64,000 bases of DNA from Hyphomicrobiaceae bacterium UBA7697 (GCA_002482645.1 DLGJ01000015.1:25015-89014), one strand, 5' to 3'. Shown: positions 37,776 to 52,221, counted from the stretch's first letter. The notes: generated by a model from the sequence alone, not told the origin. Program-made: numbers and translations.

Positions 37776-37852
37776 GGCCCCGTAGCTCAGCAGGATAGAG
37801 CATCAGATTCCTAATCTGAGGGTCGCAGGTTCGAATCCTGCCGGGGTCACCA
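37776..37852 (+). tRNA. tRNA-Arg (CCT)
   Basis: 77-nt cloverleaf; anticodon stem TCAGA-TTCCTAA-TCTGA; T-loop GTTCGAATC; encoded CCA. Confidence 0.97.
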
Positions 37853-38050: not shown

Positions 38051-38347
38051 CTAGTGCCGCTTTTGCTCTTCCAGCCTCCTGTCCGCCATCTCTTTGAGAG
38101 TACCGAGCATTTTGCCCAGGCTCTTCGTCAGGTCGACGGCGGCGGCCGGCGACAAGGCGAGCCGCGTGGTCACATGGACAGTCGCGGAAGCCGCGCCCGC
38201 TTCTCGCGTGCCGAGAGGAAGAACGCGCGCCACTCCAAAGGTCAGACTGACGCAAGCGCCGTCGAAGGCCGCACCAACGAGCTTGTTGACGTAGCTCTCC
38301 TTGACCGATGGATCGTCTAAGATTTGAGCCGTCTGCCGTTCAGTCAC
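38051..38347 (-). CDS. Small hypothetical protein (DUF3467-like pattern)
   Basis: GTG start with GGAGG RBS; YVN..LTF..RLALSP.AA..L..SL pattern. Confidence 0.7.
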   Translation of the reverse strand: MTERQTAQILDDPSVKESYVNKLVGAAFDGACVSLTFGVARVLPLGTREAGAASATVHVTTRLALSPAAAVDLTKSLGKMLGTLKEMADRRLEEQKRH

Positions 38348-38407
38348 GATCGTAACCTCCCAGATTGTTCAAAGTCTCTGTCTCCCCCAACCGCGACGCT
38401 CTCACCG

Positions 38408-38995
38408 TCAAGATCCACCGCGTGCCGGAACGCTCGCTTGCAAGCGTGGGAGGAAGTCCCAAAGGTCCCGGTTGAGATCACGCAGACTGCGGATCGCCGC
38501 CGACATTTCATCGATGCGGGCCTTGTCGACCTTACGGGTCTCCCCGAACTTGAACCGGCCCCGCCGTTCCACGATGCGCAAGGACTGCGTGTGCGTGATG
38601 TCGCCCTGCTCGTTGAGCATGAACATCGCGTGATTGAACTCGTTGCGCAGCCGCGTGGCGGCCGAAAAACGGTCGATCAAATCGTCAAGCTCCTGGCGAA
38701 CTTCCGTCTGAGAAATTCGGATGAGCGCCAAGCGCTGTATCAGGTCGAGCCTCGCCCGCGTGGTGTTGAGCGTCGAAAACACGATGGCGGCCGACACCTC
38801 GTCCGTATCGAGCAGAAGCATCAGCACATAGATGAACATGCTTTCGTTGTTGGACCAGCTGAAGGAGAGGTTCCCGATCAGCGCAAGAAGCATCGTCCGG
38901 CGGTCGGCGGACTCGAACGCGGCCGTCTCGATTGATTTGAAGTCCGGTTTAGGCGGCAGCTTTGAATTCATGGGGAGGACTCGCTTTTGATCCAT
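38408..38995 (-). CDS. Alpha-helical hypothetical protein with Rx4H (HEPN-like) motif
   Basis: LIGNLSFSWSNNES..RLRNEFNHAMF; host-like codon usage; start at 38995 or 38971. Confidence 0.7.
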   Translation of the reverse strand: MDQKRVLPMNSKLPPKPDFKSIETAAFESADRRTMLLALIGNLSFSWSNNESMFIYVLMLLLDTDEVSAAIVFSTLNTTRARLDLIQRLALIRISQTEVRQELDDLIDRFSAATRLRNEFNHAMFMLNEQGDITHTQSLRIVERRGRFKFGETRKVDKARIDEMSAAIRSLRDLNRDLWDFLPRLQASVPARGGS

Positions 38996-39056
38996 GAACG
39001 CGCGAAAATGCCGGTCCAACGCCAGTATCGATCCCCTTCCGACAAGGGGTAGTGCC

Positions 39057-39554
39057 ATGTTTGGACTTTTGAAAGTCCGCCGCGCACGCAAGGTCGCCGT
39101 TGCCTTGATCTCTCCTTTCGTCGAGGAGAGTCAGACTCGATTCTCCTCGCAGCTGACAGAACACGCATGGCTTGACCCGTACATGGTCGGCTTCATGAGC
39201 ATGCTGATATCACTGGCCGCCGAATACACGGCGGGACGCCTCGATTCTGAAAGCGCGGGCCTCGTCCAGCTTGAAGCGTGGCAGGAGGTGACAGGTTTTC
39301 CGAGCCACCTGATCGGAGAAGAAATCTGCCTGCTCAGCAGCGGACAGGACCGGAAATTCCGTCATGGCTGTCTCAACGCCAGTCGCTTCATGGAAGAGCT
39401 AACACGTCCCGTGCATAGCCATCCCGATCAGCTTCCGCCCGGCTACCGGACCCACGGCCTCAACTACGACCGCTCCGCAGCGATGGCGCTTTGGTCGGAA
39501 CTTTTTGATGGCCACATCGGGGCGCTCGATGGCGATCTGGGTTTGCCGCGGTAG
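39057..39554 (+). CDS. Hypothetical protein
   Basis: ATG with AAGGGG RBS; protein-like composition (WLDPYMVGFMSMLISLAAE). Confidence 0.7.
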   Translation: MFGLLKVRRARKVAVALISPFVEESQTRFSSQLTEHAWLDPYMVGFMSMLISLAAEYTAGRLDSESAGLVQLEAWQEVTGFPSHLIGEEICLLSSGQDRKFRHGCLNASRFMEELTRPVHSHPDQLPPGYRTHGLNYDRSAAMALWSELFDGHIGALDGDLGLPR

Positions 39555-40088
39555 GACACTTGCTTCCCACCCGATGCTTGCCGCCGCGACCGCTCTTGGA
39601 AGGCGCAACCATCTTTGGTTTCGTCAGTGGACGCAGTGGAAACCCAGAACCCCCTGACGATACATGGGTCGTCGTTTGGGTTCATTGGTGCTGTGGATGT
39701 CGTGGGGTGCACCGGCGGCGCAATCTCGGAAAAAGCAGCGAGAAACTCCGCAATCAGCTGCTGGCTACCATTCTCGCTTACGACACTCAGAAAATATTCT
39801 AGCTGAAGTTCACGCGGCGTTCGGCCCGCCATATCCAATGGGCGTGACATTTGACGCAACTCCCTACCCAACTGTACGCCATGACGACCATCAATGCTTA
39901 CGCTTCCGACCCAATGCTGCAATCTTAAGCAACTCCCAAGCCTATCGCTAGCCTTTTAATTTTTTGTGACGAATGTGTGGCGATTCCAAATAAAGTCCGT
40001 GTACGTTCGCTGCAAAGATGGCAAAGCTGGTACTTCTCGAAGGCGGCTTGAAGGCAGCGAAGGAATTCGATCCCCTTATGGGTTGGAT

Positions 40089-40514
40089 TTACCGGCCGCG
40101 ACGCTGTAGGCGGAGCTTTTGCTCCCAAACGCGCAATCGCAAAAGCATTGCGGTGCCGGTTTTGGCGGTTACGCCCAATATCTTTGCCGCTTTATAGGAG
40201 CTCAGGGACGGCCCCAGCGCACGGCTGAGCATGATGAGCTGCAGCCATTTGTGCATAGGGACCTTGCTGTCCTGAAAGATCGTTCCGAGCTTGACCGTGA
40301 AGGGGCGCCGGCAGTCATAGCACTTATACGTATGGATGCGGGTGCTCTCCCCGGTCAGACGCCCTATGCGGCGGCTGCCTCCGCAATGGGGACAGACCGG
40401 ACCGTCCGGCCAGATTTGTCGCTCGACAAATTCGTAGGCCGCCTCTTCGTCACGAAACGTGCCGAAGTCCAGTGTCTCTCGCCGCTTCATGAGTGTGCCA
40501 GACGCCAGCGACAT
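40089..40514 (-). CDS. IS1595-family transposase N-terminal Zn-ribbon/HTH only (no DDE domain)
   Basis: FRDEEAAYEFVERQIWPDGPVCPHCG..YKCYDCRRPFTVKLGTIFQDSKVPMHKW..SSYKAAKILGVTAKT. Confidence 0.8.
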   Translation of the reverse strand: MSLASGTLMKRRETLDFGTFRDEEAAYEFVERQIWPDGPVCPHCGGSRRIGRLTGESTRIHTYKCYDCRRPFTVKLGTIFQDSKVPMHKWLQLIMLSRALGPSLSSYKAAKILGVTAKTGTAMLLRLRVWEQKLRLQRRGR

Positions 40515-41113
40515 CGCTCGCGATCCTCTAGCCGAGCCACCCGATGGACACGCCCGTAAGCTGTTCCTTCCAACAGACGTTGCCGTGAGCTACGACGCCC
40601 CCGGAATTCTACAGCAGGCCCATTTTGGGCTCAACAGTAGAGTTGGGTACGCGTTGTATACATCGTGGTACGCTTAGTATTATTTTCACCCTTGGCGTTT
40701 GCGTTAGAGGTTTAGCGTAAACAACAAACCTGCTACGTCTTGAGTACGTATTATACAATATCCTATAACATATGCTGCATTACACCATAAGAACTGGGTA
40801 CATATTATGTGCCCTTTGGTATGTATAAGAATATTGCGAAAATTTCTGTGCCTCTTCCTAATATAGGGACCTTGATCGGACCACGTTCCGGTCAAGAAGC
40901 CAGTGGAAGGAGGCGGATACCCAGAGGACTCGTCCCGCTACCACAAGCGGCAGATTGACGGTGCGTCTTGGCGTAAGCGAGCCGTTCCGCGATCGGGGCC
41001 GCAGATGATGATGAACCGAAACTGGATGTCATCGCATATGCGTTCCTCGCCGACGCAGAAGATCAGCGAGATTCTCAGCCGCGATGCGTCCCTGTAAGGC
41101 CAAGGAGACCATC

Positions 41114-41989
41114 ATGGGCTTACGTGACTACGACCCCAGACATAAAAACGACCCTGATCAGGACCAGGATCAGAAGCAAGATCAGGATCAGAAGCAAGAT
41201 CAGGACCAGAAGCAAGATCAGCTTCAGGGCCAGGCACAAGGCCAAGCTCAGGGCCAGGCTCAGCTAGCGGTCCAGGCTCTCTACCAGGAAAGCGACAACA
41301 AGAACGACAACGATAACGACAACAAGAACGAGAATGAGAACAAGAACGAGGTAGAGAACAAGCTCGACAACGAGGTCGAGAACAAACTCGACAACGCGGT
41401 TGAGAACAAGGTCGATAACGAGGTCGACAACAAGGTCAGCAACGAAATCAAGAACGAAGTCGAGAACAAGGTCGACGTGGATGTCGACATTGACATCGAC
41501 CTCGATCTCGACAGCCTGCCGACCGACGACGACCTGATCGATATCGAGAACTTCAATGCGCAGGACAACGAAGGCATCGTCCAAGCTCTCGCCAACGACG
41601 TATGGCAAGATGTCGCCGGCCCGGGCAACGACAACGCCTTCAATATCCAGCAAGTCAACTCGCTCGTCGACAACGACACGCTGGATCGCGCTGAAGTCAA
41701 GTATGACGCCGACGAAGTCGACGGCAAGATGGACGACAAGTTCGACGATGGAAACATCGGCGCAGGTTCGTTCATTCAGCAAGCCTTTGCCGATGGCGGC
41801 GAAGCCAAGATGGACGACGCCATGGCCGAGACCGAGATCGGCAACATCAGCGGTACCGGCAACGCGACCGCCGATGCGATCGTTAATCAGGAAGCGTTCA
41901 CCCAGAACATCGTTCAGGGTGCCAACATCCAGTTCAACTCAAATGAGATCTCGGTTGTTGGTGACGACGCGACTGATGCGATCCTTTAA
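41114..41989 (+). CDS. Acidic Q/N/D-rich repetitive protein, candidate T1SS substrate (major subunit)
   Basis: AAGGAGA RBS; QDQDQK repeats, QGQA repeats, NKxxNExE octads, VDVDVDIDIDLDLD; no signal peptide; no RTX nonamers. Confidence 0.85.
   Translation: MGLRDYDPRHKNDPDQDQDQKQDQDQKQDQDQKQDQLQGQAQGQAQGQAQLAVQALYQESDNKNDNDNDNKNENENKNEVENKLDNEVENKLDNAVENKVDNEVDNKVSNEIKNEVENKVDVDVDIDIDLDLDSLPTDDDLIDIENFNAQDNEGIVQALANDVWQDVAGPGNDNAFNIQQVNSLVDNDTLDRAEVKYDADEVDGKMDDKFDDGNIGAGSFIQQAFADGGEAKMDDAMAETEIGNISGTGNATADAIVNQEAFTQNIVQGANIQFNSNEISVVGDDATDAIL
41153..41270. repeat. 18-bp and 12-bp tandem repeats encoding QDQDQK and QGQA
   Basis: gatcagaagcaagatcag units, then cagggccaggca-like units. Confidence 0.85.
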
Positions 41990-42000
41990 CCCAGCCAAAA

Positions 42001-42027
42001 AGCCCGCGCGGACCCTCCGCGCGGGCT
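42001..42027 (+). terminator. Strong hairpin after the repeat-protein gene (terminator or mRNA stabiliser)
   Basis: agcccgcgcgg-accct-ccgcgcgggct followed by gctctttct. Confidence 0.75.
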
Positions 42028-42117
42028 GCTCTTTCTCAAATAAGAACGAAATTAGCAGGGAGACTTGGATAGAGGCGCCAAGAGCTGGACCAAGAGAAGT
42101 TTGGCGTGGAGGCATCG

Positions 42118-44124
42118 ATGGGCACCGGAGTTGCCGAGATCATCCGTCTGTTCGCAGGGCACTTCCACCTCAGCAATGAGTCGGGGCGCATGCGCCAGAG
42201 CTACGATGAGTTCATGGCCCATCGGGAACGCGACGATTTCGACCCAGGCAAGCATTCCCCCGCTCACAAATCGCCAAATCTAGACGAATTCGATACCGCG
42301 TCCCGATTCGTCGACCCGCAGTCCCCGGCACCCGGCCTGATCGGCTATGGTCCGGCGTCGGCAACCCCATTCCATTCAGGGCCGCGCCCTCCGGACATCA
42401 ATCCGATTGTCGACGAAAAGCTTCCGGACGACCTTCCACCACCGGGCGCTCCCTTCCTGCTCGTTGCTCCCAGCCTGCTGCAGATCGTAACCGTCATTTC
42501 AAACGTACCGGACGAAGCCGCGATCCATGTCACATACGATACAGGCGGCGATCAGCACCTGATCCAAGTCCAACAGCTTAATGTCATGTGGGACAATGAC
42601 ATTGCGATCTCCGAAGCGTGGTCGGTGGAGGCTCTCCAAGCACTGCAGTTTCGAGATATCGCGGAGACGCTTCAGGAACTCCATGACGAGGCGACGGCCG
42701 CGGTCCCTCCCGAGTTTTCCGATCTCGCCTTCAACACGGCGTCGCTCATATCGTTTGCCCGCGAATACGACGCCGCATGGGAAGCCTCGGGCGAAACCAC
42801 CAGAAGCGACGTCGAGCCTGGCGTCTACCTAAATGGCGAGCTTCAACCCGAAGGCACCGAGTTGCCCGTATTTCCGGTCGCGATCGGCTCCGAGGAGGAG
42901 TCTGAAAATCCATACCCGACGGACGTTCCCGCGCAGATCGTAACGGCAGGCTCCAACCTCGCCGCAAATGTCGCGGGCATCTTCGATATCAATCATGCGA
43001 TCGGCACCCTCGTCGTCGTCGGCGATTACTTTCGGACCGACGCTATCGTCCAGCTCAATCTCTATGTCGACGACGACGACATCACATACGCTGGCGATGG
43101 CATTTTCCAGATCGAGGGTGGCGGCAACGAGGCCTTCAACATCGCGACCTTTCTCGACACGGACGCAGGAGTTCCAAGCTTTGCGGGAAGTAATATTTTT
43201 CCCGGAATCGACTGGCACGTCGATGTGCTTGACGGCGACTTGTATGACGTCAGCGTTGTAACGCAGAAGAACTGGCTATACGACAACGACATTTCCGTTC
43301 AGGACGCCTACTTGGCCAACTATCAGCTCTTGATGGGGGCCAACGAGCAAGGCAACTTCGCCGAAATAATAACGATAGACGGAGACTACGATCTGGTCAT
43401 CGTCCTCGGCGACTACCACGAGATCAACTTTATCTATCAGAAGAACGTCCTGCTCGATCCCGACACACTCAAGGTGCTCGGCTACGACGCCTCCTTCCCG
43501 GAAGGCGACGGTCTGTCGGATCCATCCATAACGGCCGGCGCGAACTGGCTTCAGAACGAAGCGTTGATCGAGCAATGGGGAACGCAGGCCTATCAAGCGC
43601 TCACACCGGAATGGGAGGCCTTGATTGCGCAGCTTAAAAGTGGCGATACCGAACTGGATCCTTCGGCAGGAATCGGCATTCCGAACTTCAACGACCCCGA
43701 GTTCAACATCCTGTTGATTACGGGCAATGTCTACGACGTCAACGCCATCGAGCAGGAAAACGTCGTTGCCGATGCCGATGTCGCGCTTCAAGTGTTGCCC
43801 GCCGCGGCCGCGGCCGCCGATCCGGTCATGCAGGTGGCATCCACCGGCGAGAACGCACTCGGGAACTTCGCCACCATCGTCCACACCGGCCCTGCAGCGG
43901 ACTACTACATCGGCGGCGACCTCTATGAGGACGAGCTGCTCATCCAAACCGAATTGGTCGCGACCGATGACGACACGGTAAAGGAGTCGGATCCGGACGT
44001 CTTGGCGAACGAGCTCGTTGCCTTTGCCTCGCTCCCCGAGGGAGACGGTCAGGATGAGGACGCCGTTGCGGTCCCCGTTCACGACTCCGGCCATGCTGAC
44101 GTACTCGGCAATGTCCTCACCTAG
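42118..44124 (+). CDS. Acidic repeat protein, candidate T1SS substrate (minor subunit)
   Basis: GGAGG RBS; five alternating QxNxxxDxD and GxNxxxNxA motifs; no signal peptide or RTX nonamers; directly upstream of the T1SS genes. Confidence 0.85.
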   Translation: MGTGVAEIIRLFAGHFHLSNESGRMRQSYDEFMAHRERDDFDPGKHSPAHKSPNLDEFDTASRFVDPQSPAPGLIGYGPASATPFHSGPRPPDINPIVDEKLPDDLPPPGAPFLLVAPSLLQIVTVISNVPDEAAIHVTYDTGGDQHLIQVQQLNVMWDNDIAISEAWSVEALQALQFRDIAETLQELHDEATAAVPPEFSDLAFNTASLISFAREYDAAWEASGETTRSDVEPGVYLNGELQPEGTELPVFPVAIGSEEESENPYPTDVPAQIVTAGSNLAANVAGIFDINHAIGTLVVVGDYFRTDAIVQLNLYVDDDDITYAGDGIFQIEGGGNEAFNIATFLDTDAGVPSFAGSNIFPGIDWHVDVLDGDLYDVSVVTQKNWLYDNDISVQDAYLANYQLLMGANEQGNFAEIITIDGDYDLVIVLGDYHEINFIYQKNVLLDPDTLKVLGYDASFPEGDGLSDPSITAGANWLQNEALIEQWGTQAYQALTPEWEALIAQLKSGDTELDPSAGIGIPNFNDPEFNILLITGNVYDVNAIEQENVVADADVALQVLPAAAAAADPVMQVASTGENALGNFATIVHTGPAADYYIGGDLYEDELLIQTELVATDDDTVKESDPDVLANELVAFASLPEGDGQDEDAVAVPVHDSGHADVLGNVLT

Positions 44125-44150
44125 AATACGATCAGGGGCGCACCTCCAAC

Positions 44151-46169
44151 ATGGCCGACAATAACCGAAATCCGCTTCACAACGGCAGGACGAACGGAGC
44201 CGGCGCCGACAGCCCCAACGGTTCCGGTTCCGTGTCCACCGAAGCCGGAGAGGAAGCCGCAAGCAGATCGAACCACGGCAGCGGCACGGCGCTCGGCAAT
44301 ATCTTTGACGGCATCAAGAACGGCGCGCGCGCCAATGGTGCCAACGGTCATGGTGCCAACGGTCACGGCGCAAATGGAAGCGCTCCGATCGGCGGACGCG
44401 TCTCCAGTTTGGATTTCCGGGGAGTCCTCACCAAGGGCCTCGCCAGTTGCCGGCGCAACCTCGCGACCGTCGCCGTGTTCTCCTTCGTCGTGAACCTGCT
44501 TGTGCTGTCCATTCCGATTTATCTCTTCAACATCTCCGACCGCGTACTCACGAGCCAAAGCATGGACACGCTCGTCATGCTGACGATCGTCGTCGTCGGG
44601 GCGATCGGCGCGCATGTCCTGCTGGACCTGGCGCGGAGGACCATCCTCATGCGCGTCGCGGTCGATCTGGAGAGCAATCTCGGCGCGCCGGTCTTGAGCG
44701 CGGCGGCCCGATCGTCGCAAAACGGTTCCAGCCGCGAGTTTCAAATTCTGTCGGAACTCCAACACTTGCGTAGCTTCATAACCGGACCGGTGCTCCTCAC
44801 CATGCTCGACATGCCGGTGGTGCCGATCTATCTCGTCGTGGTCTTTCTCGTTCATCCCCACCTCGGTTTCATCGTGCTGGCGACCGGCACCGTGCTGCTG
44901 ATACTTGCGCTCCTGAACCAGAAGCTCACGGCCGTACATTTCGGTCGCGCGAACGCCTTCGGCACACGGGCCAACCTGCAAGCGGACGCCATGGCGCGGA
45001 ACGCGCAGGTGATGAACGCCATGGGCATGGTGCCGGAAGGCGTCTTGATATGGGGCGGCGAGACGGCGGAGTCCTTGAAGTCTCAGGTGTCCGCGCAGGA
45101 TCGCAACATCTGGCTGACAGCCCTGTCCAAGTTCGTCCGGCTCTGTACGCAGATCGCGATCCTCGGCTGGGGCGCTTACCTCGCGACGCACGGGCATTTG
45201 ACCGGCGGCATGATCATCGCGGCGTCGATCGTCGGCAGCCGCGCGCTCTCGCCGATCGAAGGCACGATCGAAGGCTGGCGCAGTTTCGTTCAGGCACGGT
45301 CCGCCTTCGCCCGGGTGAAAAAACTGCTGCAATCCTCGCCGTTGAACTTCGATAGGCTGCGCCTGCCGCGCCCCAAGGGCCATCTCATGGTGGATCGCAT
45401 CCTCTACGTGCCGCAGCCCGCGAAGAAGGTCATCCTGAACGGTGTTTCGTTCGAACTGCAACCCGGCGAGTCTCTTGGAATTGTCGGCGCGTCCGGAACC
45501 GGAAAGTCGACCTTGGGAAAGATGCTCGTCGGCTCGATCTTTCCCACGGCGGGTAACGTCCGCCTCGACATGATGGATCTACGCAACTGGGATCCGCGGC
45601 AACTCGGCGAGAACGTCGGGTATCTGCCGCAAGACGTCCAACTTTTCCCCGCGTCCATAAAAGAAAACATCGCCCGCATGCGTAGAGACGCGAGCGATGA
45701 ATCCATCTTCGATGCCGCGGAGATGGCGGACGTTCACAGCATGGTATCGGAGTTCGCTCAAGGGTACGAAACGCAAGTTTCCATGGATGGAACGCCGCTT
45801 TCGGGCGGCCAGAAACAGCGTATCGGTCTTGCCCGCGCCTTCTTCGGAGATCCGCAACTCGTCGTACTGGACGAGCCGAACTCCAATCTCGATCCGCCGG
45901 GAGAACGTGCGCTGGCGCGCGCTCTGGGGCTGGCGAAGGAGAAGCAGATCACGGTGATCGCGATCACCCAGCGGCCGTCGCTGCTGAGAAGCGTCGACAA
46001 GATCCTGATCCTCAACAAAGGAACGGTTCAGGCGCTCGGCGATCGCGCCGATATCATTCCGCTGCTCACGGCGCGCAAGGAGCTCGCAACGCAAAAGGCC
46101 GCCGCCAATGGCGGCGAGGCGGACTATCAGGCCGAGGAACTAGACGACCTGGACCGCCAAGGCGATTAG
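44151..46169 (+). CDS. Type I secretion system permease/ATPase (PrtD/AprD-like)
   Basis: DRVLTSQS, TM region, GASGTGKST, LSGGQKQRIGLARA, LDEPNSNLD. Confidence 0.95.
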   Translation: MADNNRNPLHNGRTNGAGADSPNGSGSVSTEAGEEAASRSNHGSGTALGNIFDGIKNGARANGANGHGANGHGANGSAPIGGRVSSLDFRGVLTKGLASCRRNLATVAVFSFVVNLLVLSIPIYLFNISDRVLTSQSMDTLVMLTIVVVGAIGAHVLLDLARRTILMRVAVDLESNLGAPVLSAAARSSQNGSSREFQILSELQHLRSFITGPVLLTMLDMPVVPIYLVVVFLVHPHLGFIVLATGTVLLILALLNQKLTAVHFGRANAFGTRANLQADAMARNAQVMNAMGMVPEGVLIWGGETAESLKSQVSAQDRNIWLTALSKFVRLCTQIAILGWGAYLATHGHLTGGMIIAASIVGSRALSPIEGTIEGWRSFVQARSAFARVKKLLQSSPLNFDRLRLPRPKGHLMVDRILYVPQPAKKVILNGVSFELQPGESLGIVGASGTGKSTLGKMLVGSIFPTAGNVRLDMMDLRNWDPRQLGENVGYLPQDVQLFPASIKENIARMRRDASDESIFDAAEMADVHSMVSEFAQGYETQVSMDGTPLSGGQKQRIGLARAFFGDPQLVVLDEPNSNLDPPGERALARALGLAKEKQITVIAITQRPSLLRSVDKILILNKGTVQALGDRADIIPLLTARKELATQKAAANGGEADYQAEELDDLDRQGD

Positions 46170-46179
46170 GAGTGCTGAG

Positions 46180-47520
46180 ATGAGTCAGGGACCGGCTCCC
46201 CAAGAATGGCATGCGGGCATTCCCCGTTCGACGCGCACCGCGACGATATTTGGCTTTTTGGTCATGGCCGCATTCTTGCTCGGCTTTGGGTCGTGGGCAT
46301 CCACGGCCCCCATCGCCGGCGCGATCATTGCCGGCGGTTCCTTCGTCGCAACCGGTGAAAACAAGATCATTCAGCATCTGGAAGGCGGCGTAATCAAAGA
46401 GATCCGCGTTCGCGAAGGCGACGTCGTCGAGAAGGGCGATGTTCTCATTGACCTGGACGAAAGGGAGCCGCGGACGGAGTTGCGCCGCTTGGAATTGCGC
46501 AAGGCCCGCGCCGTGGCCCAGGAAGCACGCCTGACCGCGGAAATGAACGAACAGGATGATGTGACGTTCCCGCGAGAACTCGCCGGTCGCGAATTCGATC
46601 CGGACATCTCGGAAATACTGGAACGCGAACGCCAAGCCCTGACGGCAAGACGCAATGCCGTCAAAACCGAAATCGCAACGCTCATGGAAGGCGTCGACGC
46701 CTTGGATCAACGGGTCGAAGGCGGAAAGCTCCAACTCGCCGCGGTCCAGCAGCAGTTGGCCTATGTTGAGGAAGAACTCGATGGAAAGCGGACCTTGCTC
46801 AAGAAGGGGCTCATCCGCAAACCGGAAGTTCTGTCGTTGGAGCGCGCCAAAGCGAACCTCTCGGGTGAGATCGGCAGGCTCAATGGAGAGATTGGCGACG
46901 CACGCGAAAGAATCGCACGCATCATGGAGCAGGTGACCGGCGTCCGAAACAATACCGTCAAGGCCGCGGTGGAGGAGATGCACAAAGTCTCCGCCGAACT
47001 CAAGGACGTACGCGAACTCATAAACGCGGCGAAGGCCGTCGTCGAGCGGGTCAGCATCACCGCGCCGGTCAAGGGTATCGTCGTGAAGCTCCAATACCAC
47101 ACGCCCGGCGGCGTCATCGAGCCGGGCAAGCCGATCATGGAAATACTTCCCGTTCAAGCGGAGCTGCTGATCGAGGCGCAAGTCAGACCCCGGGACATCG
47201 ACGTCGTCAAACGCGGCCAGCACGCCATGGTTCGGCTCTCCGCTCTCAATCGTCGTATCACGCCAATGATCCCCGGCGAGGTCGTGTACGTCTCCGCGGA
47301 TTCCTTGGTGTCGGGGAAGCAGGAAGCACAGCAAAGTCCCAGCGACGTCTATATCGCACGCATCAGGTTGAATCTGATCGAGGCATCGAAACTGCCGGAC
47401 TTCGCGCCCACACCCGGAATGCCAGTCGAGGTCTATATCAAGACCGCAGACCGGACCTTCCTCGAATATCTCTTCAAGCCTATCGAGGATAGCATGTCTC
47501 GAGCGTTCCGTGAGTTGTGA
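46180..47520 (+). CDS. HlyD family type I secretion membrane fusion protein (PrtE-like)
   Basis: N-terminal TM; KIIQHLEGGVIKEIRVREGDVV; ITAPVKGIV; TPGMPVEVYIKT. Confidence 0.95.
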   Translation: MSQGPAPQEWHAGIPRSTRTATIFGFLVMAAFLLGFGSWASTAPIAGAIIAGGSFVATGENKIIQHLEGGVIKEIRVREGDVVEKGDVLIDLDEREPRTELRRLELRKARAVAQEARLTAEMNEQDDVTFPRELAGREFDPDISEILERERQALTARRNAVKTEIATLMEGVDALDQRVEGGKLQLAAVQQQLAYVEEELDGKRTLLKKGLIRKPEVLSLERAKANLSGEIGRLNGEIGDARERIARIMEQVTGVRNNTVKAAVEEMHKVSAELKDVRELINAAKAVVERVSITAPVKGIVVKLQYHTPGGVIEPGKPIMEILPVQAELLIEAQVRPRDIDVVKRGQHAMVRLSALNRRITPMIPGEVVYVSADSLVSGKQEAQQSPSDVYIARIRLNLIEASKLPDFAPTPGMPVEVYIKTADRTFLEYLFKPIEDSMSRAFREL

Positions 47521-47555
47521 CGCGTTGACGTTCTCGCGGCGCCGGCGCCGGCCGT

Positions 47556-49064
47556 TCAATGGACGAGCGTGATCGGCCCGTTCTGTAAGCGCGTCGCGGT
47601 GTGGTACGCCGAGGTGGCCTCTCCGGTTTTACCCAGAGCCAGCAGAACCTGCGCGAGCCGCGAGTACACCTCCGCGTCCGACGGTTTTCGCTGGAGAGCT
47701 TGACGGTACGTCTTTGCCGCGTCCTCGAAGCGCGTCTGCGCCTCGTAGGCAAGTCCAAGCCGAAGCCAGGCGTTGTGCGCGTCCGGCTTGATGGACACAA
47801 GTTTCCGGAACATTTGGGTTGCACCGCGATAGTCGCCCTTGCGCATCAAGAGCTGCCCGCAACCATACAGCGCCGCCGGAGATCGAGGCGTCACCTTGAG
47901 CACCTGACGATAGCCGCGCTCGGCGCCGGCGAGCTTGTTCGCCTTATGGAGCTGTATCGTTTTCTGAAGGACGCGTGAAATGCAGCGAGGATCGAGCTTG
48001 CCGCCGAGATTCTGATTCCCTGGCGCCGTGATGACGAGATTGCTGAGCAACGCTTCGTCGACGCCGAACATGTATTTGTACTCTTCGTTCCCGCGCAGAA
48101 AATCGTACGTAACGATGCCGTTCCCGATGGCATGCCGCAGACTGTAGGCATGGAGCGCGACACCCGGCGGCACCGGGCTACGTACCGTTTCGTCGCGGCC
48201 GGCCATGAAGAACAGAAACGCTTTCTTCTGACGGTCGACCAGGGTGGCGAGCGCACCGAGCGGCTTGTCTCCTTGCCACATGACGGGGAGAAAAAGGGCG
48301 CCGCCGTCGAAGCATGCCCTGAACATGCCTCGGTTCGTGCGCACCAATCTGTGCAGCCGGTCCCCTTTGCGCTGCGCCCATTTGGTGCGCCAGAAATTCA
48401 TAAGGATGTCGAGGTCGCGATCGATCGTGTCCTCGTTGGCGACCGTAATGCGGTACTCCTGTCCATCGTCGATCTTCCGCAGAAAGCGGCGCATCTTTTG
48501 TCGTGTGTTCGAGCCAAGCCCTGCAAGATACGCGTCCCAATTTTGCGGCAGGCCGACATACGGACAAACGAGATTGTTGACGTTGTCCAGCTTGTTGACG
48601 GCGGGAATCTCAATCCGGCGAAAGTCGCTCGAGGGCAAACTTCGCAAGAGGCGTTCCAGCCTGCCGGGAGACGACCGGAAGAACTCCAGCATCAACACGG
48701 ACCAGTTGGCCCGGCGAAGAAAGCGGCCGAAGGCGGATACCGTTTGTCCTTCGTATTCGGGACGCGTGATGAGGCCGGAATAGTCGGACAATCCCCGGCC
48801 GGCGAGCGAAATCTCGTTGTAGAAACCTCCCTCCCGCCTGCGCATTTTTGTGCGCAGTCTCAGAGGAAAGAACGCCACATAGCCGGAAGACCGGCCGGGC
48901 GCGGCGGCGAGAATGAACCATTGAGACCTGTCGCCATCGAGCCAGCGTGAGATCCAGGTCCACGACAAGAAGAACTGCGCCTCGGGATCGCTCGCATACA
49001 CGGCGTCCCAATTTTCCCTGATATCAAGCAACTCTTGGCGCGTCTCGATGATGTCAATGCGCAT
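47556..49064 (-). CDS. GNAT family (CelD/BcsL-like, Acetyltransf_6) protein with C-terminal TPRs
   Basis: FFLSWTW, DYSGLI, CPYVGLPQNWDAYL, YDFLRGNEEYK, then TPR-like helices. Confidence 0.85.
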   Translation of the reverse strand: MRIDIIETRQELLDIRENWDAVYASDPEAQFFLSWTWISRWLDGDRSQWFILAAAPGRSSGYVAFFPLRLRTKMRRREGGFYNEISLAGRGLSDYSGLITRPEYEGQTVSAFGRFLRRANWSVLMLEFFRSSPGRLERLLRSLPSSDFRRIEIPAVNKLDNVNNLVCPYVGLPQNWDAYLAGLGSNTRQKMRRFLRKIDDGQEYRITVANEDTIDRDLDILMNFWRTKWAQRKGDRLHRLVRTNRGMFRACFDGGALFLPVMWQGDKPLGALATLVDRQKKAFLFFMAGRDETVRSPVPPGVALHAYSLRHAIGNGIVTYDFLRGNEEYKYMFGVDEALLSNLVITAPGNQNLGGKLDPRCISRVLQKTIQLHKANKLAGAERGYRQVLKVTPRSPAALYGCGQLLMRKGDYRGATQMFRKLVSIKPDAHNAWLRLGLAYEAQTRFEDAAKTYRQALQRKPSDAEVYSRLAQVLLALGKTGEATSAYHTATRLQNGPITLVH

Positions 49065-49338
49065 AGGGTACGCCTTATATCATATAACAAACTACTTAAA
49101 GAGTACTATAATATGGCTTTCGTGTATATATTTTTCTAAATGAAATATCGTCTAAGTAACTTTACGCCTCAAATGCGACGAAAAACTTGCCCAGTAGCGC
49201 CTTGAGTGATAGGTTGCTTTCGGTGCGCGAGAGCCCCGCCGCTTCGGAAGGGGACCCGCCCCACAGCTACTGTCATGCCGAAGGACGTTCGCGCACCGCT
49301 GTTGGCTCGGATTCACCCGACGCCGAGGGAGGCCCAAA

Positions 49339-50430
49339 TTGTTTGGGTGGTCGATCTCCGCAGGGCTGACCCCATCTCATCGGCCGCGAACGGCAACGTA
49401 TGAGGGCTTCATTACTTGCAGCGAATGCGATGCGCCGTGGGCGGAGCAACTCGCCCGGCATCTCGAGCGCTACTACGCGATCTGCCCGGCCGTGGGGAAA
49501 CGGCATTTCTTCCGGGCCCCCGCCGTCGAAAACGCGGACTACGCACTGCCACAGACCACGATCAACGCCTTGGAGGCGTCCCGGTCTCTTATCGTGATTT
49601 GCTCGCCGGCGGCGGCTAGAAGTCACCACGTCAACGAAGAGATCCGGGCTTTCAAGACACACCATCCGAGCCGGCCCGTCTTCCCTCTCATTGTCGATGG
49701 CAAGCCTGGCGATGAAGACGGAGAGTGCTTTCCCCCATTGCTGAGATTCGAGTTGGATGACGATGGCCGTATCGCGAAAGGGCCCATCGACGTCGAAGCG
49801 ACCGATGCCCGTCAGGGCACGCGCGAACATGAGCGTGCCGCGGCGCGGATAGCATCCGATCTGTTGGGTTTGTCCTCGGACAGGAGAGCCCGGCGGGAGC
49901 CGCGCCGAAAAACGCGAGCGTCGGATCACCGCCTCGGGTTCTTGATGAACCTCTCCATCGTTGTGGGCTTTGCCATCATCGTCGTTTGGAATGGACTGAC
50001 GACCAACGAGGCGTTTCTCGACCGGACATTGTATCTCGTCAGCACCAGCCTTGGGGCCACGGCGCGGCAGGCGATCGCCTACGGCACGCCGCAAACGGCC
50101 GTCGTCAACGTCCTCGAGTATGGCGAGTCCATGCTCTCGGATGTCATGAAGCGTGGCCCTCTGACACCTCAAACGGAATACCGAAGAGCGACGGTCCTGC
50201 TCCAATTGGCTGGCGTCTATAGAGACCTCGGAGACAAGGAAAAGGCGCTGGCCCTCGCCGACGACGCCCAGCACCTCTTGTTTTCGTTGCGCAATGTCGA
50301 GGCGGCGAATGCCAAATTCGAACGCCGCCTGGAGATCGCCGAAGAAGATCTGGCGACGATCCGAGCAGAGCAGGATCTTTCGGTTGATCGTCCAGAGGAG
50401 GGGCCGCCGCTCTCCAAATTGCCCCGATGA
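49339..50430 (+). CDS. TIR-domain protein with TM helix and short TPR-like tail (divergent)
   Basis: TTG start with GAGGGAGG RBS; YEGFITCS, LIVICSPAAARSHHVNEEI, VFPLIVDG.P, ECFPP; TM LGFLMNLSIVVGFAIIVVW. Confidence 0.75.
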   Translation: MFGWSISAGLTPSHRPRTATYEGFITCSECDAPWAEQLARHLERYYAICPAVGKRHFFRAPAVENADYALPQTTINALEASRSLIVICSPAAARSHHVNEEIRAFKTHHPSRPVFPLIVDGKPGDEDGECFPPLLRFELDDDGRIAKGPIDVEATDARQGTREHERAAARIASDLLGLSSDRRARREPRRKTRASDHRLGFLMNLSIVVGFAIIVVWNGLTTNEAFLDRTLYLVSTSLGATARQAIAYGTPQTAVVNVLEYGESMLSDVMKRGPLTPQTEYRRATVLLQLAGVYRDLGDKEKALALADDAQHLLFSLRNVEAANAKFERRLEIAEEDLATIRAEQDLSVDRPEEGPPLSKLPR

Positions 50431-50770
50431 GACTTGATGAGACTTGGAGACGATCACCCTCGCTAAGCGCCCAATCTGGGTACGCAAAGTATAACTTCAG
50501 TTCTCTTGAGAACAATAAGGAAGCCCCGTTCGGGGGAAAGACGGGGCCTCCTCAATTCCCATGGGTCGTGATGGGAGGGAAACCATCACTTCAAATATTG
50601 TAGCACACTCACCTATAGGATTGGAACAGATATTCAGTAATCGCTGGAAGCTTGGACCTTTCCATGCCCGGTTTGTCCGGATCTTTGTTTGTTCGTTGCG
50701 ACAAGGCCGTTCAAGATTTTTTGCTGAAGGTGAAGCCACCGTTTTGAACGTCCGCTTCGTGACCCGTCGC

Positions 50771-50799
50771 TCGCAGGCTCGAATTCTGCCGGGATCGCC
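50771..50799 (+). repeat. Degenerate copy of the tRNA-Arg 3' end (candidate attR)
   Basis: tcgcaggctcgaattctgccgggatcgcc versus tRNA 37823-37851 tcgcaggttcgaatcctgccggggtcacc, 25/29. Confidence 0.8.
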
Positions 50800-51135
50800 C
50801 CTCGGATCAGCATGTCCGTCCGCGCCCGGTGCCGCCCCGCACATGCGCCAGCGACCCTAAAGCCTGGATACGACGCCGTGCCTCGTTGGGGTGGAGGGCA
50901 GACATTCTCATCCGTATCCGCGTCATCCGTATCGGCCCCATCGGTGTCCGCCCGTCCCGGCTTTGACCCAGAACGGACAAATCTATCGGCCAGAGTCGTC
51001 AGGGTCTGCATGGTCTAGACATAGGCCGGGTGCTATGGGATTGGCCGCCCACGGCCCGTTCCGCCCCTTGCGGTCCTCCAGACATTTGTTGGTTTCGGCC
51101 GCGGCCACTATCGCGCTCATCAACGAGAGAGTTTC

Positions 51136-52221
51136 ATGTCCCTCATCCGCCCTTCCCTGTTCACCAACAAGCTCGTCAACGCGATGTTCTCGGCCGCATT
51201 GGCGTTGTCTGTGGTGTGCGCTCCGGCATACGGCCATGCATGCACCCGCATCGTTTATCTCGGCGCCGGCAGCACCGTACTCACCGCGCGATCCATGGAC
51301 TGGAAGTCCGATGTCGCCACCAATCTCTGGATCTTCCCGCGCGGCATGGCGCGCAAGGGCCAGGCGGGCGAAAATTCGATCGCGTGGACCTCGAAATACG
51401 GCAGCGTCATCGCGTCCGGGTACGATATTTCCACGACCGACGGAATGAACGAGAAGGGACTTGTGGCCAACGTCCTGTGGCTCGTCGAGTCCGAGTACCC
51501 GCCCGCCACCAGCGACAAGCCCGGTCTGACCATCGCCGCCTGGGCTCAGTATGTGCTCGACAACTTCGCCACCGTGGCCGAGGCGGTCGAGGTGCTGGAG
51601 ACCGAGCCTTTCGTGGTTGTCACCGATGCGGTACCCGGCGAGGAGCGGCTCGCCACGCTACACTTGTCGATTTCGGACGCCACGGGCGACAGCGCCATTA
51701 TCGAATATATCGACGGCAAACAGGTGATCCATCACGACAGGTCGTATCAGGTGATGACCAATTCGCCCGCCTTCGACAAGCAGCTTACCCTTGACGATTA
51801 TTGGAAACAGATCGGCGGCACGGTCTTTCTGCCAGGAACCAACCGGGCGGCGGACCGGTTCGCCCGTGCCTCGTTCTACGTCAACGCGATTCCGAAATTT
51901 GACGATCCGAATCTCGCGGTTGCCGGAGTGCTCTCGGTCATCCGCAACGTCTCGGTCCCGTTCGGTATCTCGACCCCGGATCACCCGAACATTTCATCGA
52001 CACGCTGGCGTACTGTCGCCGATCAGGAACGTAAGGTCTATTTCTTCGAATCCGCGCTTACGCCGAACACGTTCTGGGTCGATCTGAAGAAAGTCGATTT
52101 CTCCGCCGAGACCGGCAAGGTGATGAAGCTCGATCTCGGACCGAACCAGAGCAAGACCTATTCGGGCGATGCGACGGCGAAATTCGAGGCGGCAACGCCG
52201 TTCAAGTTCCTCGGGAAGTAA
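51136..52221 (+). CDS. Linear amide C-N hydrolase (choloylglycine hydrolase/penicillin V acylase family), exported
   Basis: Signal peptide then CTR nucleophile; ARSMDW; DGMNEKGL; MTNSP; RFARA. Confidence 0.92.
   Translation: MSLIRPSLFTNKLVNAMFSAALALSVVCAPAYGHACTRIVYLGAGSTVLTARSMDWKSDVATNLWIFPRGMARKGQAGENSIAWTSKYGSVIASGYDISTTDGMNEKGLVANVLWLVESEYPPATSDKPGLTIAAWAQYVLDNFATVAEAVEVLETEPFVVVTDAVPGEERLATLHLSISDATGDSAIIEYIDGKQVIHHDRSYQVMTNSPAFDKQLTLDDYWKQIGGTVFLPGTNRAADRFARASFYVNAIPKFDDPNLAVAGVLSVIRNVSVPFGISTPDHPNISSTRWRTVADQERKVYFFESALTPNTFWVDLKKVDFSAETGKVMKLDLGPNQSKTYSGDATAKFEAATPFKFLGK

What the first reader, a model, noticed from the sequence alone, without database searches (positions are those of the whole stretch)
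41114..49064. Candidate T1SS-exported two-subunit fibre / functional-amyloid system
Seen: four co-oriented genes, namely repeat protein A (291 aa), a strong hairpin, repeat protein B (668 aa), a PrtD-like ABC and a PrtE-like MFP, plus a convergent GNAT-TPR gene. A and B lack Sec/Tat signals and RTX GGxGxD nonamers, yet they share motifs. A carries QVNSLVDND and GANIQFN, matching B's repeated QxNxxxDxD and GxNxxxNxA. Known: curli (CsgA/CsgB) and Fap (FapC/FapB) use a major subunit plus a motif-sharing nucleator built on Asn/Gln ladders, but export them by Sec plus dedicated channels. Inference: this is a T1SS-based, possibly Ca2+-dependent analogue that I cannot match to a characterised system.
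Basis: partly seen in the sequence, partly recalled or inferred. Interest (0 to 1): 0.9.

Follow-up and report, generated by a model that had tools for sequence, protein, structure and literature searches.

The report
Unnamed two-cargo type I secretion cassette
This is a real gene cassette, conserved in many Alphaproteobacteria but uncharacterised, in which a PrtD/HlyD type I secretion pump sits beside two very acidic repeat proteins of unknown families that are probably exported to the cell surface; the proposed amyloid-fibre function is possible but not shown.

Summary
A (41114-41989), a terminator hairpin, B (42118-44124), a PrtD-type ABC and a HlyD adaptor are co-oriented, with a convergent GNAT-TPR gene. 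A and B have no Sec-like N-terminus, no Cys and no RTX nonamers; both have pI 4.05. Q.N...D.D occurs 5 times in B and once in A, as does G.N...N.

New here:
- A-B-ABC-MFP is colinear in 69 of 79 related loci (Bradyrhizobium, Afipia, Nitrobacter, Reyranella, Methylobacterium, Blastochloris and others). A long-A variant occurs in Paracoccus and Ensifer.
- A 190-aa protein with a HEPN-like motif is found upstream in 74 loci, and GNAT-TPR in 44.
- The B family has 814 clusters (50% identity), with no Pfam, NCBIfam or PDB relative.
- The cassette is patchy: 3 of 25 species in the genus, beside tRNA-Arg.
- The A-B hairpin is conserved in 61 of 62 loci, and metatranscriptome contigs cover A about tenfold deeper than B.
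- A has 59 alternate positions running Q, then N, then V/I/L.

Verdict: type I secretion cargo is well supported. Co-assembly is plausible, and amyloid is unproven.

The parts
37776..37852 (+). tRNA-Arg(CCT) flanking the cassette; a likely island insertion point
   Evidence: ARAGORN. The cassette is found in only 3 of 25 species genomes of the genus and 2 of 401 genomes sampled across the class.
38408..39091 (-). U227: conserved cytoplasmic protein of about 190 aa (likely start at 38971). It has invariant WSNNES, TLNTTRAR.DL and RN(E/D)xxH, which is a HEPN-like Rx4H motif.
   Evidence: A homologue lies next to A in 74 of 79 loci, at median 57% identity. Alignment A4. Weak matches to HEPN_Cthe2314 (E 0.005, 2 of 25 members) and Csx1 (E 0.014). 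More than 1000 relatives, nearly all named hypothetical.
38994..39554 (+). U186: small unknown protein divergent from U227 (likely start at 39057)
   Evidence: Homologue adjacent to U227 in 44 loci, at median 37% identity. No family hit and no transmembrane segment.
40089..40514 (-). Zn-ribbon (IS1595-type) ORF divergent from A; probably a domesticated DNA-binding regulator
   Evidence: Pfam Zn_ribbon_IS1595, E 1.6e-12. A homologue sits at the same position in 19-20 loci of distant genera such as Reyranella, Bosea, Stappia and Salinarimonas.
40560..41113 (+). AT-rich promoter and leader region upstream of A
   Evidence: GC falls to 0.51-0.55 here, and there is a promoter-like site at 40779-40808. 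In Bradyrhizobium, a transcript contig starts about 127 nt upstream of the A start codon.
41114..41989 (+). Protein A, 291 aa, pI 4.05, no Cys. Residues 16-132 have strict two-residue periodicity, with one face running Q, then N, then N/V, then V/I/L and the other face charged. The conserved C-terminal domain carries one Q.N...D.D hairpin (171-190) and a terminal AFTQNIV.GANIQFN half-module.
   Evidence: In-frame 12-, 18- and 24-bp tandem repeats in the DNA. Relatives found in 111 species genomes.
42001..42037 (+). Intrinsic terminator/attenuator hairpin between A and B
   Evidence: 12-bp stem plus T-rich tail, z = -4.7. A hairpin of -24 to -36 kcal/mol is found in 61 of 62 homologous A-B spacers with differing sequences.
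42118..44124 (+). Protein B, 668 aa, pI 4.05, no Cys. It has a conserved N-terminal helix, a disordered stretch, an orphan Q-hairpin (136-163), a helical insert (170-224), five beta modules (G.N...N.A.I ... GDY ... Q.N...D.D) and a disordered acidic tail ending D....VLT.
   Evidence: 814 family clusters of uniform length.
44151..46169 (+). Type I secretion ABC permease/ATPase of PrtD type. It has no C39 or CLD domain and carries a low-complexity N-terminal extension of about 95 aa.
   Evidence: TIGR01842, 686 bits. PDB 5L22, E 2.4e-109. Median 72% identity across loci.
46180..47520 (+). HlyD/AprE-type periplasmic adaptor (MFP) with an N-terminal transmembrane helix
   Evidence: TIGR01843, 385 bits. 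LipC 5NEN, E 4.7e-46. Hydropathy peak at residues 20-38.
47556..49064 (-). Cytoplasmic GNAT (Acetyltransf_6, FemAB/CelD-like) fused to TPR repeats. It is convergent here but lies directly downstream on the same strand in most other loci.
   Evidence: Pfam. Present in 44 of 79 loci, and directly after the MFP on the same strand in 34.

Best explanation
This is a horizontally mobile accessory cassette. Its core is a PrtD/HlyD type I secretion system, which uses a TolC encoded elsewhere in the genome.

The system exports two dedicated, very acidic, Cys-free, non-RTX beta-repeat proteins. A is made in excess from a monocistronic transcript that mostly stops at the conserved hairpin. B, the pump genes and, in most genomes, the GNAT-TPR gene are expressed by read-through at a lower level.

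Both proteins are predicted to stay unfolded or soluble in the cytoplasm, leave C-terminus first, and fold outside the cell. B becomes a five-module beta-repeat body whose invariant Gln/Asn/Gly/Asp residues cluster. A becomes a small C-terminal domain that carries one Q-hairpin and one terminal G-half of the same module, preceded by a long, rapidly evolving tract of Q/N/aliphatic residues with two-residue periodicity.

The most likely role is a cell-surface or matrix structure (adhesive layer, fibre or gel) in which the abundant A associates with the minor B through the shared module halves, probably helped by Ca2+ binding to the many carboxylates. U227, U186 and the Zn-ribbon, LuxR or Crp genes upstream are taken to be regulators. 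GNAT-TPR is taken to be a cytoplasmic modifier or holder of the cargo.

Shown: the gene content, the synteny, the motifs, the transcript bias and the predicted fold of B. Inferred: secretion, extracellular association, the role of Ca2+, and the roles of the accessory genes.
For: - The type I secretion components are identified above curated cut-offs and match the PrtD and LipC structures. A TolC is encoded in the genome at 330 bits.
- A-B-ABC-MFP is colinear in 69 of 79 loci from many genera. The same order is seen in Paracoccus and Ensifer.
- The cargo properties fit: pI about 4, median 0 Cys, no signal peptide, no transmembrane segment.
- B's C-terminal 40 residues are disordered and end in an acidic-plus-hydrophobic motif in 65 of 66 homologues.
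- The attenuator hairpin is conserved in 61 of 62 loci.
- In three metatranscriptomes (X27-X29), contigs cover A at depth 17-90 and B at 0-5. One 894-nt contig runs from the 5' leader to about 10 nt before the A stop codon.
- A module HMM built from B hits every A protein in two fixed places.
- The invariant Q/N/G positions co-vary, and beta3 of one module pairs in register with beta1 of the next.
- The two-residue periodicity is a family trait: median run 34 against 8 when shuffled.
- Published precedents exist for type I secretion cargo that stays on the surface as aggregates or as an acidic dipeptide-repeat adhesin: Cdz (PMC5380434) and BapA (PMC5588039).
Against: - There is no experimental evidence of secretion, surface location or assembly for any member.
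- A's extreme C-terminus is variable and often lacks the hydrophobic tail that B has, so A's secretion signal is not evident.
- The A/B similarity is weak statistically (E 0.059; 5.8 bits).
- B's model looks like a self-contained folded monomer, and no structural likeness to known fibre subunits was found.
- Like-charged faces in A would oppose in-register stacking unless counter-ions bind.
- GNAT-TPR is missing within 10 kb in about 40% of loci.
- Contig depth is a poor measure of expression.
Confidence: 0.5

Rival explanations
1. A and B form true functional amyloid, or a strand-complemented fibre. B, with its orphan N-terminal Q-hairpin, primes assembly. A subunits then polymerise head to tail, each donating its C-terminal G-half to the Q-hairpin of the previous subunit, and/or stacking their Q/N/aliphatic period-2 tracts as a Ca2+-bridged cross-beta spine.
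For: - Major/minor expression pattern.
- A carries the two module halves in swapped order and ends in an incomplete module. B begins its beta domain with an orphan half.
- 59 alternate positions run Q, then N, then V/I/L.
- The invariant Q/N residues cluster.
- All of Foldseek's top-ranked hits, though non-significant, are beta-solenoids, including CsgA and FapC.
Against: - B is predicted to be a stable monomeric fold.
- The charged face of A is strongly net negative.
- The N-terminal tract is replaced by other low-complexity sequence in some members (Microvirga, Hyphomicrobium), so the Q/N zipper is not essential to the family.
- No multimer model or experiment exists.
Confidence: 0.17
2. The cassette is a bacteriocin-like or contact-dependent antagonism system, functionally like Caulobacter Cdz. 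A and/or B act on neighbouring cells, and U227 and U186 protect the producer.
For: - The distribution is sporadic and island-like, next to a tRNA.
- The layout is two cargo genes plus type I secretion genes plus small conserved accessory genes, as in cdzABCDI (PMC5380434).
- U227 has a HEPN-like Rx4H motif, which is common in conflict systems.
- A TIR-domain gene lies next door in this genome.
Against: - The cargo proteins are large, acidic and lack glycine zippers.
- The ABC has no C39 peptidase domain.
- No membrane immunity protein is present: U227 and U186 have no transmembrane segment.
- U227 is more conserved than A or B (57% against 43% and 33%), the opposite of what is usual for immunity proteins.
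- No toxin domain was detected.
Confidence: 0.13
3. A and B are independent soluble exoproteins that do not assemble. Examples would be a Ca2+ or other metal-binding scavenger or buffer (A), and a secreted binding protein or enzyme with a new beta-repeat fold (B).
For: - Both have an extreme carboxylate content: 72 D+E in 291 aa for A and 115 in 668 aa for B.
- B is predicted to be a well-folded monomer with a helical insert that could form a site.
- PrtD-type systems export soluble proteins such as proteases, lipases and HasA. This rests on established knowledge, plus the best PDB matches.
Against: - No catalytic or known binding domain was found.
- The strict co-occurrence of A and B, with shared module halves, argues for a joint function.
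- The low-complexity tract evolves too fast for a specific binding site.
Confidence: 0.15
4. Only B is exported. A stays in the cytoplasm as an abundant acidic holdase, or as a factor that keeps B unfolded or targets it to the pump.
For: B has a conserved PrtD-like C-terminal tail in 65 of 66 homologues, whereas A's extreme C-terminus is variable. A is made in excess of B.
Against: - The most conserved part of A is its C-terminal 45 residues, which is where type I secretion signals lie.
- A is Cys-free and extremely acidic, like exported cargo.
- Solo A paralogues occur without B (L011, L020, L049).
- The low-complexity, length-polymorphic tract is typical of surface-exposed proteins.
Confidence: 0.05

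Closest known systems
PrtD/PrtE, LipB/LipC and HasD/HasE class of type I secretion systems (ABC without a C39 or CLD domain)
   Same: The ABC and MFP are clear members: TIGR01842 and TIGR01843 score above their cut-offs, and the best PDB matches are Aquifex PrtD 5L22 and Serratia LipC 5NEN. The cargo genes lie directly upstream of the pump genes with a terminator in between. TolC is encoded elsewhere in the genome.
   Different: The cargo has no RTX GGxGxD nonamers, no protease, lipase or hemophore domain, and belongs to no named family. There are two cargo proteins that share a new repeat module. Conserved accessory genes (U227, U186, GNAT-TPR) accompany the system.
Caulobacter crescentus Cdz system (cdzAB type I secretion genes, CdzC/CdzD and CdzI; PMC5380434)
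   Same: It is an alphaproteobacterial type I secretion system with two adjacent cargo genes whose products stay on the producer surface as insoluble, amyloid-like aggregates. Its distribution is sporadic and island-like.
   Different: CdzC and CdzD are 84-86 aa glycine-zipper peptides with N-terminal signals. Immunity comes from a three-transmembrane-segment protein. A and B are 291 and 668 aa, acidic and rich in Q, N and D. No membrane immunity gene is present and no killing has been shown.
Paracoccus denitrificans BapA and bapBCD (PMC5588039)
   Same: BapA is a type I secretion-dependent, extremely acidic surface protein whose bulk is a strict dipeptide-period repeat (Asp-Ala, 891 times) between divergent termini. 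It is needed for Ca2+-stimulated biofilm. A likewise has a long period-2 acidic tract ahead of a conserved C-terminal domain.
   Different: BapA is 2211 aa and annotated as RTX-family. It is a single cargo, and its operon includes the outer-membrane component. I did not test sequence relatedness to A. A's periodic face is Q/N/aliphatic rather than Ala.
Curli (CsgA/CsgB) and Fap (FapC/FapB) functional amyloids
   Same: They have a major subunit plus a motif-sharing minor subunit, conserved Gln/Asn/Gly positions in repeated strand-turn-strand units, and beta-solenoid-like local geometry. CsgA and FapC are Foldseek's top, though non-significant, hits.
RTX adhesins and S-layer proteins exported by type I secretion (LapA, RsaA and similar)
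   Same: They are acidic, Cys-poor repeat proteins secreted C-terminus first, thought to fold outside the cell with Ca2+, and they act at the cell surface.
   Different: There is no RTX beta-roll motif (the regex and the HemolysinCabind model are both negative), no retention module, and the proteins are much smaller.

Membership tests
Type I secretion system, PrtD/AprD/LipB class | ABC permease/ATPase of the PrtD subfamily, without an N-terminal C39 peptidase or CLD | tested here: met
   TIGR01842 at 686 bits against a cut-off of 510. HlyB and LssB models score below their cut-offs. Pfam finds only ABC_membrane and ABC_tran. PDB 5L22 PrtD matches at E 2.4e-109 over residues 91-643.
Type I secretion system, PrtD/AprD/LipB class | HlyD-family periplasmic adaptor encoded next to the ABC | tested here: met
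   TIGR01843 at 385 bits against a cut-off of 209. LipC 5NEN matches at E 4.7e-46. An N-terminal transmembrane helix is present.
Type I secretion system, PrtD/AprD/LipB class | TolC-type outer-membrane channel available | tested here: met
   TIGR01844 at 330 bits (cut-off 225) on contig C14 of the same genome; it is not in the cassette.
Type I secretion system, PrtD/AprD/LipB class | Cargo with an uncleaved C-terminal secretion signal that is actually exported by the system | not testable with these tools
   Only indirect evidence is available. B has a disordered tail with a conserved acidic-plus-hydrophobic end in 65 of 66 homologues. A has a conserved C-terminal 45 aa but a variable last few residues.
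RTX proteins | Tandem GGxGxDxUx nonamers (HemolysinCabind) | tested here: not met
   The regex GG.G.D gives 0 matches in A and B. There is no Pfam hit, even at E 10.
Curli (CsgA/CsgB) | Curlin repeat units (S-X5-Q-X-G-X-G-N-X-A-X3-Q; Pfam Curlin_rpt) | tested here: not met
Curli (CsgA/CsgB) | Sec signal peptides and a CsgG/CsgE/CsgF export channel | tested here: not met
   A and B have no hydrophobic N-terminus. The neighbouring genes are type I secretion genes, not csgEFG.
Fap amyloid (FapC/FapB) | Fap repeats and a FapF outer-membrane channel operon | tested here: not met
Cdz contact-dependent bacteriocins | [quoted passage not shown] | tested here: not met
   A is 291 aa and B is 668 aa, and no GxxxG zipper tract is apparent in either sequence. 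No accessory protein has a transmembrane segment. Features taken from PMC5380434.
Functional amyloid in general | Cross-beta fibres that bind ThT or Congo red and resist SDS | not testable with these tools
   Sequence periodicity and motif sharing are compatible with this but prove nothing.
HEPN superfamily (for U227) | All-alpha fold with a conserved Rx4-6H motif | tested here: inconclusive
   RN(E/D)xxH is invariant in 25 of 25 sequences. Profile hits are only weak: HEPN_Cthe2314 at E 0.005 in 2 of 25 members, and Csx1 at E 0.014. No PDB relative was found, and no structure was predicted.

The most novel reading that the evidence does not exclude
The cassette encodes a third, previously unrecognised route to bacterial extracellular protein fibres. 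A type I secretion system exports a minor primer protein (B) and a major subunit (A). These polymerise outside the cell by completing each other's half beta-modules, and/or by Ca2+-bridged stacking of A's Gln/Asn/aliphatic period-2 tract. Low cytoplasmic Ca2+ would keep them harmless before export.
Probability: 0.17. Interest if true: 0.9.

Novelty: new variant of a known kind. Interest (0 to 1): 0.62.

Why it matters
Type I secretion is understood mainly through RTX toxins, proteases, lipases, giant adhesins and small bacteriocins. This cassette is different. It has up to eight conserved genes, and six of them (A, B, U227, U186, the Zn-ribbon protein and the GNAT-TPR fusion as used here) have no characterised relative. 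It nevertheless occurs in common soil, rhizosphere, wastewater and marine Alphaproteobacteria: Bradyrhizobium, Afipia, Nitrobacter, Methylobacterium, Paracoccus, Ensifer and Methyloceanibacter. It is also transcribed strongly in rhizosphere metatranscriptomes.

Working out its function would add a new class of non-RTX type I secretion cargo and a new beta-repeat fold. It could also reveal a new self-assembling surface material. The experiments are straightforward in tractable laboratory strains.

Tried and rejected
- **Family searches.** Pfam, NCBIfam and PADLOC scans of A, B, U227 and U186 gave nothing usable, even at E 10. PDB sequence searches with profiles of A, B and U227 also found nothing.
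- **Direct-coupling analysis of B modules.** Same-position couplings between modules were rejected as evidence of parallel stacking, because the control using non-adjacent modules (n and n+2) shows them as strongly or more so. The analysis also cannot tell hairpins from solenoid arches.
- **Expression in this organism.** No RNA runs exist for it; only DNA metagenomes hold the sequence. Expression evidence was therefore taken from a Bradyrhizobium homologue.
- **Literature.** Searches for a characterised homologue found only analogues.
- **Rejected readings:**
  - RTX protein: no nonamers.
  - Curli or Fap membership: the defining features are not met.
  - Cdz membership: cargo size, lack of glycine zippers and lack of a membrane immunity protein.
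  - The Zn-ribbon ORF as IS debris: it is conserved in position in 19-20 loci.
  - Rhicadhesin, the unidentified 14-kDa Ca2+-dependent adhesin of Rhizobiaceae (recalled from memory): the size is wrong and the distribution is patchy.

Full report
**1. What is there**

- Gene A lies at 41114-41989 and encodes 291 aa.
- A GC-rich hairpin lies at 42001-42027. It has 12 bp with 10 GC pairs and a T-rich tail, an MFE of -32 kcal/mol for the 76-nt stretch folded, and z = -4.7.
- Gene B lies at 42118-44124 and encodes 668 aa.
- An ABC permease/ATPase at 44151-46169 scores 686 bits on TIGR01842 (type_I_sec_PrtD, cut-off 510). It aligns end to end with Aquifex PrtD (PDB 5L22, E 2.4e-109).
- A HlyD-family adaptor at 46180-47520 scores 385 bits on TIGR01843. 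Its best solved relative is LipC (5NEN).
- A convergent gene at 47556-49064 encodes an Acetyltransf_6 GNAT domain fused to TPR repeats.
- A TolC (TIGR01844, 330 bits) is encoded elsewhere in the same 3.15-Mb genome.
- The ABC has no C39 or CLD domain, so this is the PrtD/LipB/HasD class of type I secretion.

**2. The cargo proteins**

A and B have no Pfam, NCBIfam or PADLOC match, even at E 10, and no sequence relative in the PDB.

Both have pI 4.05 and no cysteine. Neither has a GG.G.D nonamer or a hydrophobic N-terminus. The family medians are the same: pI about 4.05-4.08 and 0 Cys.

The motif claim is exact.
- Q.N...D.D lies at B residues 153, 312, 383, 441 and 546 (with a degenerate sixth copy at 610) and at A residue 180.
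- G.N...N lies at B 278, 335, 407, 474 and 577 and at A 269.
- These residues are invariant or nearly so in 74 B homologues.

The likeness between A and B is confined to these motifs.
- hhalign aligns only B 144-163 with A 171-190, at E 0.059.
- A 58-position HMM built from B's modules hits all 79 A proteins in the same two places. The first half of the module (Q..V..G.N...N.A.I) matches the extreme C-terminus of A. The Q.N...D.D strand matches the centre of A.
- The median score is 5.8 bits, against -1.7 for shuffled A sequences.

So A carries two halves of B's module in swapped order and ends in an incomplete module. B starts its beta domain with an orphan Q-hairpin at 136-163.

**3. Protein A's N-terminal tract**

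From residue 16 to 132, every second residue forms this series: eighteen Q, then A, Q, L, Q and S, then nine N, then alternating V/L/I and N, then V V V I I L L.

The intervening residues are D, E and K, with G and A in the (GQ/AQ) stretch.

The longest such run has a family median of 34 positions, against 8 (maximum 15) in shuffled sequences.

The DNA shows in-frame 12-, 18- and 24-bp tandem repeats. Metatranscriptome contigs of a Bradyrhizobium homologue carry in-frame 6- and 9-bp insertions in A (table 4). The tract is therefore length-polymorphic.

In some genera the tract is replaced by other low-complexity sequence: NG/NL runs in Reyranella, Bosea and Methylorubrum, ETEIEDSYN repeats in Microvirga, and Gly/His runs in Hyphomicrobium. 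Paracoccus and Ensifer versions carry an extra Gly-rich insert of about 300 aa.

The invariant parts are V.V.V.L.L.D, DD.IDI, GN.FNI.QVN...D.D and, most strongly, AFTQNIV.G.NIQFN.

**4. Protein B's fold**

With 11 sequences AlphaFold gave pLDDT 47. With 74 sequences it gave pLDDT 72 and pTM 0.70.
- Residues 132-627 score 80-97 for most of their length.
- Residues 1-131 and 628-668 score below 50.
- The core consists of an initial hairpin, a helical insert (170-224) and five modules. Each module has four strands of about 11, 6, 14 and 6 residues.

I ran a mean-field direct-coupling analysis on 1098 module instances from 207 B proteins. It links the invariant Q2, G7, N9, N13, G31 and Q41 positions.

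On adjacent-module pairs, the analysis gives a coherent antiparallel register between strand 3 of one module and strand 1 of the next: pairs 39-17, 43-11, 45-11, 49-9 and 51-6. One of these, 45-11, also appears in the non-adjacent control.

Same-position couplings were discounted because the control with non-adjacent modules shows them too.

These data fit a tightly packed repeat body with a buried Gln/Asn/Gly cluster. They cannot distinguish hairpins from solenoid arches. B therefore looks like a folded protein of a new repeat architecture, not like an amyloid peptide.

**5. The cassette is conserved and wider than the finding**

A degenerate-pattern scan of one genome per species found A relatives in 111 species, and 80 loci were fetched. 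I ran tblastn with the window's proteins against these loci.
- A, B, ABC and MFP are colinear on one strand in 69 of 79 loci.
- GNAT-TPR is within 10 kb in 44 loci, and directly after the MFP on the same strand in 34. Examples are Blastochloris and Bradyrhizobium.
- The ORF at 38408-39091 (U227) is next to A in 74 loci.
- Its divergent partner (U186, 38994-39554) is present in 44 loci.
- The IS1595-type Zn-ribbon ORF (40089-40514) is in the same position in 19-20 loci from distant genera. It is therefore part of the cassette, not transposon debris.

Median identities to the window proteins:

| Protein | Median identity |
|---|---|
| ABC | 72% |
| U227 | 57% |
| MFP | 56% |
| Zn-ribbon | 49% |
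| GNAT | 44% |
| A | 43% |
| U186 | 37% |
| B | 33% |

U227 has invariant WSNNES, TLNTTRAR.DL and RN(E/D)xxH. It gives weak hits to HEPN models, and it has more than 1000 relatives, nearly all unnamed.

Other loci have a LuxR-type or Crp-type regulator upstream instead of, or in addition to, the Zn-ribbon gene.

A profile of B finds 814 clusters at 50% identity, 562 of them at E 1e-30 or better. The 150 best listed are nearly all 620-730 aa or shorter fragments, matched end to end with no extra domains.

Full-length B relatives, with a long A, U227 and the pump genes, lie on megaplasmids or chromids of Ensifer adhaerens and Paracoccus. B relatives are also found on replicons of Shinella and Sulfitobacter.

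**6. Distribution**

The cassette is patchy.
- 2 of 401 genomes in an even sample of the class carry it, counting this one.
- 3 of 25 species genomes of the same genus carry it. In one of those, B is split by a frameshift.

In this genome it lies directly after tRNA-Arg(CCT) at 37776-37852. It behaves as an accessory, horizontally moved module.

**7. Expression logic**

A strong hairpin (-24 to -36 kcal/mol within 45 nt) is present in 61 of 62 A-B spacers, which have a median length of 132 nt. The sequences differ, which indicates selection for the structure.

No RNA data exist for this organism.

On the Bradyrhizobium locus L023, contigs from three rhizosphere or plant metatranscriptomes (X27-X29) cover A at depth 17-90 and B at 0-5. 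One 894-nt contig runs from 127 nt upstream of the A start to about 10 nt before its stop codon. The fourth run laid, a wastewater metatranscriptome (X24), covers A and B at similar depth.

Contig depth is a crude measure, but it agrees with the hairpin. A is the abundant monocistronic product, and B and the pump are read-through products.

**8. Interpretation**

The best-supported reading is a dedicated type I secretion system with two cognate non-RTX cargo proteins that act together at the cell surface or in the matrix.

Cargo status rests on four things: conserved adjacency, composition, the lack of other export signals, and B's disordered tail. That tail has an acidic residue within the last 12 positions in 66 of 66 homologues, and at least two hydrophobic residues within the last 5 in 65 of 66. 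A's last residues are variable, which is a weakness.

Joint action rests on strict co-occurrence and the shared half-modules.

Ca2+ involvement is an inference from the carboxylate load and from the logic of type I secretion folding. No binding motif was tested.

The specific fibre model is compatible with all the data, but nothing tests it. In that model B primes assembly, and A polymerises by half-module completion or by period-2 stacking. I give it about 0.17.

Two published systems show that type I secretion cargo can behave this way.
- Caulobacter CdzC/D form surface aggregates (PMC5380434).
- Paracoccus BapA, with (Asp-Ala) repeated 891 times, is a Ca2+-stimulated biofilm adhesin (PMC5588039).

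The cassette is a member of neither. The defining features of Cdz were tested and are not met; sequence relatedness of A to BapA was not tested.

Rivals:
- An antagonism system. The sporadic distribution and the HEPN-like neighbour favour it. Against it: there is no toxin domain and no membrane immunity protein, and U227 is too conserved.
- Independent soluble exoproteins.
- A as a cytoplasmic holdase for B.

**9. Novelty**

The secretion machine is ordinary. The cargo families, the module, the period-2 tract and the accessory genes are uncharacterised, despite hundreds of family clusters. I rate this a new variant of a known kind, with interest 0.62.

Noticed in passing
window 38408-39091 (-): U227, the cassette's most conserved accessory protein, has an invariant RN(E/D)xxH (HEPN-like Rx4H) motif along with WSNNES and TLNTTRAR.DL. 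The family has more than 1000 members, nearly all unnamed. One possibility, given the conserved A-B terminator, is an RNA-binding or RNase regulator.
   Followed up: partly
window 40089-40514 (-): An IS1595-type Zn-ribbon ORF with no transposase domain is conserved at the same position, divergent from A, in 19-20 loci of distant genera. It looks like a domesticated regulator rather than IS debris.
   Followed up: partly
window 37776-37852 and 37800-50800: tRNA-Arg(CCT) lies directly upstream of the cassette. The cassette is present in only 3 of 25 species of the genus, which fits a genomic island.
   Followed up: partly
window 49339-50430 (+): A TIR-domain protein (TIR_2, E 4.8e-8) with a strong hydrophobic segment near residue 199 lies just beyond the GNAT-TPR gene. 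It is not conserved next to the cassette in other genomes.
   Followed up: no
window 51136-52221 (+): A choloylglycine hydrolase / linear amide C-N hydrolase family gene (CBAH, E 1e-46).
   Followed up: no
window 44151-44435 (ABC residues 1-95): The PrtD-type ABC has a low-complexity N-terminal extension of about 95 aa (GANGHGANGHGANG) before the first transmembrane helix. Homologues in other loci also have long, variable N-termini; for example, the L003 ABC has a Pro/Gly-rich extension of about 200 aa.
   Followed up: no
G420:C2:76616-78468 (same genus): In one congeneric genome the B gene is split into two overlapping frames (residues 47-180 and 179-641), so it is apparently a frameshifted pseudogene.
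   Followed up: no
L023:9967 and L023:10349 (Bradyrhizobium A gene): Metatranscriptome contigs carry in-frame 6-bp (GAGAAC) and 9-bp insertions in A, so the low-complexity parts are length-polymorphic in natural populations.
   Followed up: no
L091:7035-8870, L093:9117-10940, L092:7066-8853: Paracoccus and Ensifer adhaerens carry an A variant of about 600 aa. It has the same (DQ/GQ)n N-terminus and AFNQ.IV.GAN C-terminus, plus an insert of about 300 aa rich in Gly, Ala, Ser and Asp.
   Followed up: partly
L011, L020, L049: Some genomes have solo A paralogues with no B or pump genes within the fetched flank. One metagenome-assembled genome (OH_CDB_172) has three A loci.
   Followed up: no
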